A DNA stretch of 64,000 bases from an uncultured Acidimicrobiaceae bacterium (GTDB lineage Bacteria > Actinomycetota > Acidimicrobiia > Acidimicrobiales > RAAP-2): positions 1,531,777 through 1,595,776 of the forward strand of contig OY970152.1 in assembly GCA_963706305.1 (NCBI GenBank). Reading direction: 5' to 3'. Of this stretch, positions 61,309-64,000 are shown one piece after another (position 1 is the stretch's first letter; every line of letters starts with the position of its first letter). The notes beneath the pieces were generated by a model that had not been told where the DNA came from, made no database searches, and saw only the letters and a program-made list of their open reading frames with translations. The translations under genes were made by a program, and so were the position numbers.

Positions 61309-61381
61309 GGGGGTGTAGCTCAATTGGTAGAGCGCTACGTTCGCAATGTAGAGGCAGTGGGTTCGAATCCCATCACCTCCA
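61309..61381 (+). tRNA. tRNA-Ala (anticodon CGC)
   Basis: Cloverleaf folded by hand: GGGGGUG/CACCUCC acceptor with G3:U70, D arm GCUC/GAGC, anticodon stem CUACG/UGUAG with CGC, TTCGAAT T loop; CCA not fully encoded. Confidence 0.95.
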
Positions 61382-61407
61382 CCGAAAGGCCTGATCTATT
61401 GAGTGGA

Positions 61408-62181: not shown

Positions 62182-62470
62182 GGCTCTCCTACGTTGCGTG
62201 CTGGTAGTAGCCACAGGAATCTAGCGGCCATCTAGCGGTCTCGTTCGCATCACAAAGTGAAGACGGATCATTCGATCCCCTGCCTCTGTGAGAGGGGTGT
62301 GAGGCAGTTCAAAAGAAGATGTGAGAAGCCTCAGGGTTGAATGTGAATGGCCCGCTCCATCAGTTTTTGTTTTTGAGTTGAGCGTATTGAATTTGATCGT
62401 TCGTAATCTCTGCCTCGATGTGAACGCTCGAAGCATTCGCTTTGGGCGTCTTCGAGGCGGAGGTTCAATC

Positions 62471-64000
62471 ATGGTGACAGCGTCACTATTAGCCAGGAAC
62501 CGCGAAGTCGACGGTTCACCAAATGCATCGCGAGCGGGGGGCACTCGCCGTGTCGGAAGGCGCTCGTTGCTCACGACGTTCCTCAGCGTTGCGACCCTCG
62601 TTTCGTTCGCGAGCGCCAATGCCTACGCAGCGAGCTTCGTGCCGTCGCTGGGCGCGGCGGCACCCTACGCAATTTTGGGAGTTACGCCCGGAAGCAACAT
62701 TGGTCTCTCGAACATCACCGGTGACCTTGGCATCTCGTCGAGCACGTCGACCTCGGCAGGAGCCGCGGCGTCATCGGGAGCCTCTGGCTCTGGTCTTCTC
62801 GGTGATGGACTCTTGTCAGGCGTCGGCACGCTTGCTGGTTCCCTCCTGGGCAGCGTCACTGGTGCGACGAACGTGAGTCACACAGCTGCGACGGCGGCCG
62901 AGAGTGCCGCCGCGAGCGCGTACCGATCGATCTCGAATGAAACGCCCACGCATCTGATCCCGGGATCCGTTCTTAAGGATGCAACGCTCGCTCCCGGTGT
63001 GTACGCAGTTCCCGGCACGCTCGAAGTCGTTGGACGTCTACTCCTCAATGCGCATGGCGCAGCGAATCCCGACTTCATCTTTCAGATTCCCTCCAACCTC
63101 GCAACCGCCTCCCGTACGCAGGTGCTTCTCGGCGCCGGCGTTCGGGCGAGCAACGTGCTGTGGCAGGTCGGCGGAGCGTCGGCTCTCTCGCCCGGTACAT
63201 CATTTGCGGGAACAATCCTTTCGAATGGTCCGATCACGCTGAGAACCGGATCCAGTTTGATTGGACGTGCGCTGTCATTGACGAGTGGCGTGAATCTCGA
63301 CAGCGACTCGATCAGCGTTCCTTCGGTGAGTTCCGTCGCATCCGCTGCCGGCGGTGCGGTCGACACTGCGACGAAAGTCGCAGTTCGCGCAGCGGGCGCG
63401 GTCGGCGCACGTGGCGTTGCTGCTGCGACGCCGAACGTGTCCGTAGGCGCACACCTCTCGCTACCACTCTCGACGCTGACAGAGGTCCCAACGGTGGGCT
63501 TGTCGACGGCGGGTGCGTCGTCATCTGGCGTCGCATCAGTCGGCCTGCCCGCAGTGCTCCCGTTCATTCCGCTGTCAGCCATCGACGTACCGGAACTCGA
63601 GGTACCGACTCTGCCAACGGGTGGGGTTGCTCTGCCAGGTTCGGGAGCTAGCGCGCCCCTCACGAACTTGTTCTTTCCGCTCGTTGGAATCGGGGCGGGG
63701 CTGCCGACATCCGTGTTCCCTACTGTTCAGGTGCCCAGCGTTCCGTCGCTGGGCACGAGCGCGCCGATAAGTGGAGTGGCCGCGCCGACGATTGGCCTAC
63801 CCCCGTTGCCGTCGGTGGGCGTACCGGCACCCTCTTCGACTCCTTCACCGCTGATAGGAGTTCCCTCGTTGACGGCGCCAACATCGCCGCCGGTATCCGA
63901 AACGACGCCTCCTCTTCCGCTGAGCGGACTATCACCGCCGGCTCTCGTACTGCCATCATCAGTGCCATCCGGCGTCGCGTTGCCCGGCGTGACCGCACCC
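62471..64000 (+). CDS. Secreted DUF3494 ice-binding-like protein with Pro/Ser/Val-rich tail (partial, runs off the window)
   Basis: ATG 62471 after GGAGG; 510 codons without a stop; RRSLL...ANAYA signal; LGAAAPYAILG, ITGDLG, LAPGVY, FIFQI, ASNVLWQVG, GTSFAGTIL, ITLRTGSSLIGRAL. Confidence 0.85.
   Translation, partial: MVTASLLARNREVDGSPNASRAGGTRRVGRRSLLTTFLSVATLVSFASANAYAASFVPSLGAAAPYAILGVTPGSNIGLSNITGDLGISSSTSTSAGAAASSGASGSGLLGDGLLSGVGTLAGSLLGSVTGATNVSHTAATAAESAAASAYRSISNETPTHLIPGSVLKDATLAPGVYAVPGTLEVVGRLLLNAHGAANPDFIFQIPSNLATASRTQVLLGAGVRASNVLWQVGGASALSPGTSFAGTILSNGPITLRTGSSLIGRALSLTSGVNLDSDSISVPSVSSVASAAGGAVDTATKVAVRAAGAVGARGVAAATPNVSVGAHLSLPLSTLTEVPTVGLSTAGASSSGVASVGLPAVLPFIPLSAIDVPELEVPTLPTGGVALPGSGASAPLTNLFFPLVGIGAGLPTSVFPTVQVPSVPSLGTSAPISGVAAPTIGLPPLPSVGVPAPSSTPSPLIGVPSLTAPTSPPVSETTPPLPLSGLSPPALVLPSSVPSGVALPGVTAP

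What the first reader, a model, noticed from the sequence alone, without database searches (positions are those of the whole stretch)
62471..64000. Ice-binding-like DUF3494 protein missing from the ORF track, with twin-arginine-like signal and long low-complexity stalk
The frame is open from ATG 62471 to the window end. After a signal (RRVGRRSLL...ANAYA) comes a recognisable DUF3494 beta-solenoid (about 62648-63322), then more than 220 residues rich in Pro/Ser/Val/Leu/Thr/Gly with almost no charged residues. DUF3494 proteins bind ice and act as antifreeze or ice adhesins (established). Inference: a surface-tethered, possibly O-glycosylated adhesin, pointing to a cold habitat or to binding of another crystalline surface.
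Basis: partly seen in the sequence, partly recalled or inferred. Interest (0 to 1): 0.7.

Follow-up and report, generated by a model that had tools for sequence, protein, structure and literature searches.

The report
Sortase-anchored ice-binding-like surface protein
An uncultured soil actinobacterium (Acidimicrobiaceae) encodes an "ice-binding-type" beta-solenoid head on a long floppy stalk, which the genome's only sortase, encoded directly behind it, most likely fastens to the cell wall; the gene is real and gives a likely natural substrate for the poorly understood class F sortases, but whether the head binds ice is untested.

Summary
The frame from ATG 62471 (GGAGG 7 nt upstream) runs 450 nt past the window end and encodes 659 aa. 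It comprises a signal peptide (1-53), a PF11999/DUF3494 solenoid (127.5 bits; all top 31 PDB fold hits are ice-binding proteins), a 327-aa disordered Ser/Pro/Ala/Leu/Val stalk (5% charged), and a C-terminal sorting signal: IPVGAPQTGFGG, a hydrophobic helix, then RARRIQRG.

The next gene overlaps the stop codon by 8 nt. It is a class F sortase, the only sortase in the 2.97-Mb genome, and this protein is the genome's only convincing sorting-signal protein. The pair recurs in every related locus. In the genus, presence of DUF3494 and of a sortase are tightly linked (30/1/3/15). Class F sortases across Actinomycetota are typically preceded by cargo with similar PxG..x(T/A)GxGG signals.

The twin arginine is not conserved, so Sec export is more likely than Tat. 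No canonical Pmt was found, so glycosylation stays open. The DNA occurs in soil and peat, so a cold habitat is not shown. The putative ice-binding face is only moderately ice-like, and ice binding remains unresolved. A second module nearby has decayed.

Verdict: a lineage-specific variant of known kinds, of moderate interest.

The parts
62459..62463 (+). Shine-Dalgarno GGAGG, 7 nt before the ATG
   Evidence: Read directly from the sequence (L002 4235-4239).
62471..64000 (+). First 1530 nt of the 1980-nt gene for a 659-aa DUF3494 surface protein; it continues off the window to the stop codon at window-equivalent 64448-64450
   Evidence: Open frame. Full gene at L002 4247-6226 = G000:C1:1594247-1596226. 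0 of 2000 shuffles stay open.
62471..62629 (+). Signal peptide, residues 1-53: long Arg-rich n-region, h-region SLLTTFLSVATLVSFASA, cleavage site A-Y-A|A
   Evidence: A51, A53 and P58 are conserved across 22 homologues, but the RR at 30-31 is not. AF2 predicts a helix at 25-53. No SignalP or TatP was available.
62630..63325 (+). DUF3494 / PF11999 beta-solenoid head with flanking alpha-helix (residues 54-285; Pfam match 74-281 = 62690-63313; helix 137-155)
   Evidence: PF11999 127.5 bits against a 28.7 cutoff. AF2 gives 168 residues with pLDDT >= 90. The Foldseek top 31 PDB hits are all DUF3494 ice-binding proteins, E down to 6e-13, TM (target-normalised) up to 0.91. A profile search finds 25 IBP chains.
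62735..62875 (+). Subfamily-specific Ser/Gly/Leu/Ala-rich insert (residues 89-135) that replaces the canonical 'SPGxxITGFPPG' capping-head region
   Evidence: Conserved motif SSGLLGxGLLSGVGxLAGSLLGxVxG in the family. pLDDT 28-59, no secondary structure. Composition S 26%, G 23%, A 15%, L 15%. The canonical sequence is seen in the type-2 paralogue P0082.
63326..64000 (+). Disordered stalk (residues 286-612; the in-window part ends at residue 510): S 18%, P 16%, A 13%, L 11%, V 11%, G 10%, T 9%, with 17 of 327 residues charged
   Evidence: Composition. AF2 pLDDT 25-40 with no secondary structure over 286-630. No tandem DNA repeats. No other ORF of 300 aa or more in the genome has such a window.
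63557..63610 (+). Conserved short linear motif in the stalk, LPFIPLSAIDVPELEVPT (residues 363-380)
   Evidence: L363, P364, I366, P367, L368, I371, P374 and L376 are at least 90% conserved in 22 homologues; the motif is duplicated in some members.
64000..64000 (+). Marker for off-window parts (window-equivalent coordinates): rest of the stalk to 64306, with the HPRVK (residues 581-585) and HAK (598-600) motifs; sorting motif IPVGAPQTGFGG at 64307-64342; hydrophobic helix at 64358-64423; basic tail RARRIQRG at 64424-64447; stop at 64448-64450; class F sortase gene at 64443-65120 (GTG overlaps the stop by 8 nt); LapA-domain gene at 65137-65607; remnant of a second DUF3494-sortase module at about 66004-66376
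   Evidence: L002 coordinates plus 58224.

Best explanation
This is a cell-wall-anchored surface-display protein with its own dedicated class F sortase.

Inferred sequence of events:
1. The precursor is exported, most likely by Sec, and the signal peptide is cut after A-Y-A53.
2. The C-terminal hydrophobic helix (630-651) and basic tail (RARRIQRG) hold the precursor in the membrane.
3. The class F sortase, translationally coupled to the cargo gene and itself anchored by an N-terminal helix, recognises the extended signal I-P-x-G-A-P-x-T-G-x-G-G. It cleaves between T620 and G621 and transfers the Thr carboxyl to a peptidoglycan/lipid II amine.
4. The 327-aa uncharged, Pro/Ser-rich disordered stalk spans the wall and holds the DUF3494 solenoid head outside it.
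5. The head acts as a flat-faced binding module for an ordered surface.

My split for the ligand is: a non-ice solid or polymer surface in soil about 40%, ice (freeze-thaw protection or attachment) about 35%, other (for example a structural coat) about 25%.

Shown: the gene, the fold, the disorder, the signal architecture, the conservation of the gene pair, and the 1 sortase : 1 substrate ratio. Inferred: the cleavage site, the acceptor, and the ligand.
For: - Full gene and architecture.
- The C-terminal block IPxGAPxTGxG is invariant in 22 of 22 homologues (P614, G616, A617, P618, T620, G621, G623), followed by a hydrophobic segment and R(S/T)RRxQRG. It gives a weak hit to NCBIfam GVDTG_CTERM.
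- The next gene is a sortase: PF04203 64.5 bits and class_F_sortase 162.9-164.1 bits against a 166 cutoff. Its His (GHVDS) and Cys (VTCGG) are invariant.
- Its start codon overlaps the cargo stop by 8 nt.
- It is the only sortase in the genome, and this protein is the only convincing sorting-signal protein.
- A sortase directly follows the DUF3494 gene in every related locus with downstream DNA: 19 pairs in 16 loci, including one with different flanking genes (L006).
- Within the genus the contingency is 30/1/3/15, Fisher p = 7.6e-9.
- A different cargo with the same signal also precedes a class F sortase (L026).
- Across Actinomycetota, class F sortases are usually preceded by cargo ending in PxG..x(T/A)GxGG plus a helix and a basic tail.
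- Two soil-metatranscriptome contigs match the 5' part of the gene exactly.
Against: - There is no biochemical evidence for cleavage or wall linkage.
- The pentapeptide is APQTG, not LPXTG. The only characterised class F sortase (Cutibacterium acnes SrtF) was reported with LPXTG (PMC8225981).
- The NCBIfam class F and GVDTG models both score just below or below their cutoffs.
- Class F sortases carry Asn where class E enzymes have the catalytic Arg, in 31 of 31 sampled, so their chemistry is not fully understood.
- The co-occurrence statistic is not corrected for phylogeny.
- The ligand of the head is not constrained by any direct evidence.
Confidence: 0.75

Rival explanations
1. One reading: the head is a true ice-binding domain. 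Displayed on the cell surface, it inhibits ice recrystallisation next to the cell or attaches the cell to ice, and so protects a soil/peat bacterium during freeze-thaw. This concerns the ligand only and is compatible with the anchoring mechanism above.
For: - Every solved relative is an experimentally studied ice-binding protein.
- Relatives come from soils and peatlands that can freeze, including palsa/bog and SPRUCE peat MAGs.
- The gene is patchy within the genus (31 of 49 species), like an accessory environmental trait.
- The upper rows of the predicted B-face are small residues: GASALS, GPITLR, SGVNLD.
Against: - Only 11 of 20 predicted outward B-face positions are A/G/S/T, against about 70% in AnpIBP (PMC7277481).
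- The lower rows carry Arg, Gln and Leu.
- The position equivalent to the essential T156 of AnpIBP is Ala here and Asp in 7 of 22 family members. The S153 equivalent is Gly.
- The capping-head region is replaced by a disordered insert.
- DUF3494 proteins are common in bacteria outside icy habitats, with unknown function (PMC11645318, PMC12337378).
- This genome kept the divergent type 1 and lost the canonical type 2.
- No habitat temperature data were available.
Confidence: 0.35
2. The protein is not processed by the sortase and simply stays tethered to the membrane by its C-terminal helix. The neighbouring sortase acts on something else or is inactive.
For: A C-terminal helix with a basic tail can act as a stop-transfer anchor on its own. 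The motif departs from LPXTG. Quadruple class F sortase knock-outs in Actinoplanes had no phenotype (PMC13251363).
Against: - The PxGAPxTGxGG block just before the helix is invariant, which a plain membrane anchor would not require.
- There is no other candidate substrate in the genome.
- Adjacency and co-occurrence with the sortase are strict.
- The same signal sits on an unrelated cargo next to a sortase.
- The sortase keeps its His and Cys and matches the class F active-site pattern.
Confidence: 0.1
3. The sortase polymerises the protein rather than, or as well as, anchoring it. It would join T620 of one molecule to a conserved stalk lysine of another (K585 in HPRVK or K600 in HAK), giving a pilus-like or bottle-brush fibre.
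For: Two conserved Lys-containing motifs lie 20-35 residues upstream of the sorting motif; K600 is at least 90% conserved. Pilus-type sortases use conserved Lys nucleophiles (PMC11231552).
Against: There is no canonical pilin motif and no second (housekeeping) sortase to attach a polymer to the wall. The lysines lie in a disordered region rather than a folded pilin domain. There is only one sortase class and one cargo.
Confidence: 0.05
4. Export goes through the Tat pathway, as the G-R-R-S-L-L motif suggests, so the solenoid folds in the cytoplasm before export.
For: RRSLL followed by a hydrophobic stretch fits RR-x-hydrophobic-hydrophobic.
Against: Only this sequence has RR at that position. 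20 of the other 21 family members have a single Arg or none, including the homologue at 86% identity (GVRS). The protein has no cofactor. The upstream RR (TRRVG) does not fit the motif.
Confidence: 0.1

Closest known systems
DUF3494 / PF11999 microbial ice-binding proteins (IBPv 5UYT, FfIBP 4NU2, TisAFP6 3VN3, AnpIBP 7BWX, EfcIBP 6EIO, ColAFP 3WP9)
   Same: Same fold: a triangular beta-solenoid braced by one long alpha-helix. The Pfam score is well above the cutoff, 22-32% identity, TM (target-normalised) up to 0.91, and a secreted protein.
   Different: - The capping-head region is replaced by a roughly 45-aa disordered Ser/Gly/Leu insert.
- The predicted B-face is less Thr/Ser-rich.
- It forms a separate, well-supported clade found so far only in Acidimicrobiia (support 0.997).
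- It carries a 327-aa stalk and a sortase signal.
- It comes from temperate soil/peat MAGs, and its ice activity is untested.
SfIBP_1 of Shewanella frigidimarina (6BG8), a multidomain DUF3494 protein proposed as an ice adhesin
   Same: A DUF3494 head displayed on an extender at the cell surface. It is a fold hit (rank 29).
   Different: In SfIBP_1 the extender is made of folded Ig-like domains in a Gram-negative envelope (PDB entry name; the rest is from my own knowledge). Here it is a disordered Pro/Ser stalk covalently sorted in a monoderm actinobacterium.
Class F sortases (SrtF of Cutibacterium acnes; SrtF1-4 of Actinoplanes missouriensis)
   Same: The neighbour scores as class F (162.9-164.1 bits against 166). 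It shares GHVDS...VTCGG..FD...Y..N.VVF with 31 of 31 class F sortases sampled across the phylum.
   Different: C. acnes SrtF is a housekeeping enzyme reported with LPXTG, and the physiological roles of class F enzymes are described as unknown (PMC8225981, PMC13251363). Here the enzyme is the only sortase, is paired 1:1 with its cargo, and the signal is PxGAPxTGxGG.
NCBIfam NF058571 'GVDTG sorting domain' (GVDTG_CTERM)
   Same: A C-terminal sorting domain with an xxxTG core, a helix and a basic tail. It hits residues 613-653.
   Different: The score is only 19.4 bits (cutoff 29) and the core here is GAPQTG, so this is a related but distinct signal variant.
Class E sortase with LAXTG substrates (for example the chaplins of Streptomyces)
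   Same: Actinobacterial covalent display of surface proteins through a non-LPXTG variant signal (PMC8225981).
   Different: A different sortase class: GHRTT...TLTTC...xRLVV, with an Arg present. The motif differs (Ala at position 2 rather than position 1), and class E enzymes are housekeeping enzymes with many substrates.

Membership tests
PF11999 Ice_binding (DUF3494) | Pfam HMM score above the gathering threshold | tested here: met
   127.5 bits against 28.7, residues 74-281, profile positions 7-207 of 208.
PF11999 Ice_binding (DUF3494) | Triangular beta-solenoid with one long flanking alpha-helix | tested here: met
   AF2 pLDDT >= 90 for 168 residues, helix at 137-155 and 17 strands. The Foldseek top 31 PDB hits are all DUF3494 IBPs.
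PF11999 Ice_binding (DUF3494) | Flat B-face dominated by small or hydroxyl residues (the ice-binding site) | tested here: inconclusive
   11 of 20 predicted outward positions are A/G/S/T, against about 70% in AnpIBP. The equivalents of the essential S153 and T156 are Gly and Ala, and Asp at the latter in 7 of 22 relatives (PMC7277481). The register was inferred from sequence alignment, not from coordinates.
PF11999 Ice_binding (DUF3494) | Ice-binding activity (thermal hysteresis, recrystallisation inhibition, ice shaping) | not testable with these tools
   Needs recombinant protein.
NCBIfam NF045625 IBP_CFB (equivalog) | Score above the equivalog cutoff | tested here: not met
   57.3 bits against 400. 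It is not an orthologue of the Bacteroidota IBP.
Sortase substrates (cell-wall sorting signal) | LPXTG-like pentapeptide near the C-terminus | tested here: inconclusive
   APQTG (P, T and G kept, Leu replaced by Ala) sits inside the invariant IPxGAPxTGxG block. NF058571 scores 19.4 bits, below the 29 cutoff. Similar variants precede class F sortases across the phylum.
Sortase substrates (cell-wall sorting signal) | Hydrophobic segment followed by a positively charged tail at the extreme C-terminus | tested here: met
   LDLALLALSAFLLAVCAGSFAI (630-651) followed by RARRIQRG (652-659). AF2 predicts a helix at 629-658.
Sortase substrates (cell-wall sorting signal) | N-terminal signal peptide | tested here: met
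   n-region, h-region and AYA|A site conserved in the family. No dedicated predictor was available.
Sortase substrates (cell-wall sorting signal) | A cognate sortase in the genome | tested here: met
   One PF04203 gene in the genome, directly downstream with an 8-nt overlap. The pairing is conserved.
Sortase substrates (cell-wall sorting signal) | Cleavage after Thr and amide linkage to peptidoglycan | not testable with these tools
   Needs biochemistry.
Class F sortase (the neighbour gene) | NCBIfam NF033748 score above cutoff; class F active-site pattern | tested here: inconclusive
   162.9 and 164.1 bits against a 166 cutoff, so marginally below. The GHVDS, VTCGG and Y..N.VVF motifs are identical to 31 of 31 class F sortases sampled. 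NCBI names close relatives 'class F sortase'.
Tat substrates | Conserved twin arginine at the n/h boundary | tested here: not met
   RR occurs only in this sequence. The others have GVRS, GGRT, AARS, GMRT or KR.
Pmt-dependent O-mannosylated actinobacterial proteins | A protein O-mannosyltransferase (PF02366) in the genome | tested here: not met
   The best hits are 19.6 and 16.3 bits, below the 22.7 cutoff. The ORFs are a GT-C-like TPR protein and a YfhO-family protein. Other glycosylation routes are not excluded.

The most novel reading that the evidence does not exclude
This soil lineage offers a minimal, tractable model for what class F sortases do. In this reading they are single-cargo enzymes that read an extended P-x-G-A-P-x-T-G-x-G-G signal rather than LPXTG. 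The DUF3494 head they display is not an antifreeze but a general flat-face adhesin for ordered non-ice surfaces, such as minerals or crystalline polysaccharides. The conserved stalk motifs (LPFIPL..VPEL, HPRVK, HAK) would be functional sites, for example a second cross-linking lysine or a wall-binding element, rather than filler.
Probability: 0.2. Interest if true: 0.65.

Novelty: new variant of a known kind. Interest (0 to 1): 0.4.

Why it matters
Class F sortases are widespread in Actinomycetota, yet their physiological roles and natural substrates are described as unknown (PMC13251363, 2026; PMC11231552, 2024). Here one genome has exactly one class F sortase and one candidate substrate, translationally coupled, with an invariant non-LPXTG signal. 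The same gene order recurs across the lineage and, with related signals, across the phylum. That gives a concrete peptide and enzyme pair to test.

It also adds a well-defined, monophyletic DUF3494 subfamily from temperate soil/peat bacteria to the open question of what 'ice-binding-like' domains do outside icy habitats.

The gene itself is an ordinary, already-annotatable family member ('ice-binding family protein'), so the value lies in the pairing and the signal. There is no evidence here for cold adaptation.

Tried and rejected
- Tat export: rejected as the likeliest route because the RR is not conserved.
- Canonical Pmt O-mannosylation: no PF02366 hit above the cutoff.
- Degenerate sortase lacking the catalytic Arg: at first it looked clade-specific. 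It was rejected because Asn at that column is universal in class F sortases, 31 of 31.
- PDB sequence searches with the sortase, alone and as a profile, gave nothing usable.
- A second homology search returned only close Acidimicrobiia sortases and did not sample the class broadly. A genome search with NF033748 replaced it.
- No Rfam regulatory RNA and no promoter or terminator signal above chance around the operon.
- No tandem DNA repeats in the stalk.
- No structure for the stalk or its conserved motifs in the full-length model.
- No paper mentions DUF3494 and sortase together.
- Papers holding both 'ice-binding' and 'Acidimicrobiia' did not look relevant from their titles and abstracts; I did not read them.
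- Habitat temperature could not be obtained from the coded run metadata.
Full report
**1. Observation.**
The frame from ATG 62471 to the window end is open for 510 codons, and none of 2000 shuffles of the same bases stays open. It appears in the ORF list only when ORFs that run off the source are allowed, which explains its absence from an ORF track. A GGAGG lies 7 nt upstream of the ATG, and the N-terminus is conserved in homologues, so the start is right. PF11999 matches residues 74-281 at 127.5 bits against a cutoff of 28.7. The in-window tail (residues 286-510) is 76% P/S/V/L/T/G and has 9 charged residues in 225.

**2. Completing the gene.**
The window is G000:C1:1531777-1595776 of a single-contig 2.97-Mb genome. 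Reading on (L002), the gene ends 450 nt past the window and encodes 659 aa. The last 47 residues read IPVGAPQTGFGG-AAGAG-LDLALLALSAFLLAVCAGSFAI-RARRIQRG. That is a T-G-containing motif, a hydrophobic helix and a basic tail, which is the architecture of a cell-wall sorting signal.

**3. The head.**
An AlphaFold model of residues 40-310 built on 69 sequences is confident (pLDDT 81.8; 168 residues at 90 or above), except for residues about 89-124. The Foldseek top 31 PDB matches are all DUF3494 ice-binding proteins: IBPv 5UYT at E = 6e-13, AnpIBP at TM 0.91 normalised to the target, and FfIBP at rmsd 2.2 Å. A profile search finds 25 IBP chains.

The low-confidence segment is a subfamily-specific Ser/Gly/Leu/Ala insert with the conserved motif SSGLLGxGLLSGVGxLAGSLLGxVxG. 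It replaces the canonical 'SPGxxITGFPPG' capping-head region. On a tree of the solenoid core, the 24 proteins with this insert form one clade (support 0.997) on a long stem, separate from the canonical type. In the species-genome collection this clade is found in uncultured Acidimicrobiaceae/Acidimicrobiales MAGs. A few more distant, canonical-type matches carry other labels: Actinomycetes, Acidobacteriota and Pontibacter.

**4. The signal.**
The family shares a long Arg-containing n-region, a hydrophobic core and an AYA|A cleavage site. The RR at residues 30-31 is unique to this sequence. The homologue at 86% identity has GVRS and the others have GGRT, AARS or GMRT. Tat export depends on the twin arginine, so Sec is the likelier route.

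**5. The stalk.**
Residues 286-612 are S 18%, P 16%, A 13%, L 11%, V 11%, G 10% and T 9%, with 5% charged residues against about 21% in the genome's long ORFs. There is no predicted structure (pLDDT 25-40) and there are no tandem DNA repeats. The stalk is not mere filler. LPFIPLxxIGVPELAVPT, LPLPLSGISLP, HPRVK (581-585) and HAK (K600) are conserved across the family, and total protein length varies from 453 to 676 aa.

No canonical Pmt is encoded, so O-mannosylation is unsupported, though glycosylation as such is not excluded.

**6. The sortase.**
The next ORF has its GTG at L002 6219, inside 'GTGGCTGA', and overlaps the cargo stop by 8 nt. It matches PF04203 at 64.5 bits and NCBIfam class_F_sortase at 162.9-164.1 bits against a 166 cutoff. 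It is the only sortase in the genome. A scan of all ORFs of 80 aa or more finds no other convincing sorting-signal tail. This is therefore a one-enzyme, one-substrate system.

The sorting block IPxGAPxTGxG is invariant in 22 of 22 homologues. A sortase gene directly follows the DUF3494 gene in every related locus with downstream DNA, 19 pairs in 16 loci, including L006 whose flanking genes differ.

Among 49 species genomes of the genus, 31 have PF11999 and 33 have a sortase. The contingency is 30/1/3/15 (Fisher p = 7.6e-9, not corrected for phylogeny), and 25 of 39 DUF3494 hits have a sortase within 0.9-2 kb.

In L026 an unrelated cargo (a Cys-containing NQCNG..GGGS repeat domain with a PT linker) carries the same VPSGAPETGFGG signal and is followed by a class F sortase. 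Across 30 class F sortase loci from the phylum, the upstream gene usually ends in P-x-G-(G/A)-x-x-(T/A)-G-x-G-G plus a helix and a basic tail, for example GGVATGAGG, GPIDTGGG, GAPGTGAG and GTPQTGAG. This agrees with the weak NF058571 'GVDTG' hit.

The sortase keeps His128 and Cys195. The Asn at the column where class E enzymes have the catalytic Arg first looked odd, but it is universal in class F, 31 of 31. The enzyme is therefore a typical class F member.

**7. A lost second module.**
In relatives (L004/L012, L010, L015, L020) a second pair follows: a canonical DUF3494 protein (P0082: PF11999 209.8 bits, Thr-rich linker, IPVGAPATGEGG signal) with its own sortase. In this genome that position (L002 7780-8152) holds only codons about 29-132 of such a gene, in two frames. 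A trace of the last roughly 25 sortase codons follows (E = 0.003), just before the intact DUF2332 gene. An internal deletion plus a frameshift destroyed the second module.

**8. Organism, habitat and expression.**
Relatives are MAGs from Danish soils (MFD), a soil MAG catalogue (SMAG), SPRUCE peat and bog/palsa sites. The gene's DNA occurs in soil, rhizosphere, peat, leaf-litter and drinking-water metagenomes. One soil metatranscriptome holds two contigs identical to L002 4284-4606. That is weak evidence of transcription, because DNA carry-over is possible.

**9. Ice or not.**
[quoted passage not shown] About 70% of the outward residues are A/G/S/T, and S153 and T156 are essential. By sequence register the corresponding rows here are GRLLLN, TQVLLG, GASALS, GPITLR and SGVNLD. 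Of the 20 outward positions, 11 are small, and the lower rows carry Arg, Gln and Leu. The S153 and T156 equivalents are Gly and Ala, and the latter is Asp in 7 of 22 relatives.

This is compatible with ice binding but not indicative of it. The literature notes that DUF3494 proteins occur in many bacteria outside icy habitats, with unknown and possibly other surface-binding roles (PMC11645318, PMC12337378). I put ice at about 35%.

**10. Mechanism.**
The inferred sequence is:
1. Sec export and signal cleavage after A53.
2. Retention in the membrane by the C-terminal helix and basic tail.
3. Class F sortase cleavage between T620 and G621.
4. Transfer of the Thr carboxyl to a peptidoglycan amine.
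5. The disordered stalk spans the wall and presents the solenoid head as a binding surface.

**11. Comparison and novelty.**
The head is a bona fide PF11999 member, and public annotation already calls close relatives 'ice-binding family protein' and 'class F sortase'. No paper in the library mentions DUF3494 and sortase together. Recent papers state that the roles of class F sortases are unknown (PMC13251363, PMC11231552). Earlier AI notes of this scan report the same pairing in CPR bacteria and Actinomycetota; I treated them as leads and tested the pairing independently here.

I rate this a new variant of known kinds: a divergent DUF3494 subfamily with a non-LPXTG, class-F-type signal and a dedicated sortase. 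Interest is moderate.

**12. Limits.**
- No signal-peptide predictor was available.
- No habitat temperatures were available.
- There is no biochemistry.
- The co-occurrence statistic ignores phylogeny.
- The family sample was limited by the length and word filters of the homology search.

Noticed in passing
L002 7780-8152 (window-equivalent 66004-66376, beyond the window end): Decayed second module. Codons about 29-132 of a canonical (type-2) DUF3494 gene survive in two reading frames. A trace of the last roughly 25 codons of its sortase follows (E = 0.003), abutting an intact DUF2332 gene. Relatives have the intact pair at this spot.
   Followed up: yes
L049-L078 (class F sortase loci from 30 Actinomycetota genomes): All 31 class F sortases sampled have Asn at the column where class E sortases have the catalytic Arg (TCGG.FD....Y..N.VVF), although reviews state that all sortases have a His-Cys-Arg triad. 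An Arg two residues earlier (Y-R-x-N) is common but not universal, and is absent here.
   Followed up: partly
L049-L078, upstream of each sortase: Class F sortase genes are usually directly preceded by a cargo gene ending in P-x-G-(G/A)-x-x-(T/A)-G-x-G-G plus a hydrophobic helix and a basic tail. This is a phylum-wide, non-LPXTG sorting-signal family (compare NCBIfam GVDTG_CTERM). I did not identify the cargo domains.
   Followed up: partly
L026 2954-4165 and 4165-4896: A 403-aa secreted protein with Cys-containing repeats (..NQCNG..GGGS..C..), a Pro/Thr linker and the same VPSGAPETGFGG sorting signal. It is followed by a class F sortase whose ATG overlaps its stop codon. This is a second cargo type for the same system.
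   Followed up: partly
L002 6913-7383 (window-equivalent 65137-65607): A small membrane protein with a LapA domain (PF06305, 40.2 bits) starts 17 nt after the sortase gene on the same strand. The same third gene follows the pair in L005 and L008, so it may belong to the operon.
   Followed up: no
window 61309-61383 (L002 3085-3159): tRNA-Ala (anticodon CGC), between the 249-aa membrane-protein ORF and the SDR gene.
   Followed up: yes
P0064 (599 aa, from an ENA metagenome): A DUF3494 domain and a sortase domain lie in one ORF, joined by an Arg/Pro-rich stretch that looks like out-of-frame GC-rich translation. It is probably a frameshift or assembly artefact merging a cargo-sortase pair rather than a true fusion. 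Its sortase has Arg where class F has Asn.
   Followed up: no
G000:C1:1129103-1129432 region (L027 1240-3279): A 679-aa membrane protein combines a weak PMT/GT-C-like N-terminal part (18.4 bits, below the cutoff) with C-terminal TPR repeats. It is a candidate glycosyltransferase of unknown target.
   Followed up: partly
L002 14578-19000 (beyond the window): Three co-directional ORFs, the last a large DnaE-like polymerase. From the translations alone they look like an imuA'-imuB-dnaE2 mutagenesis cassette. I ran no family search on them.
   Followed up: no
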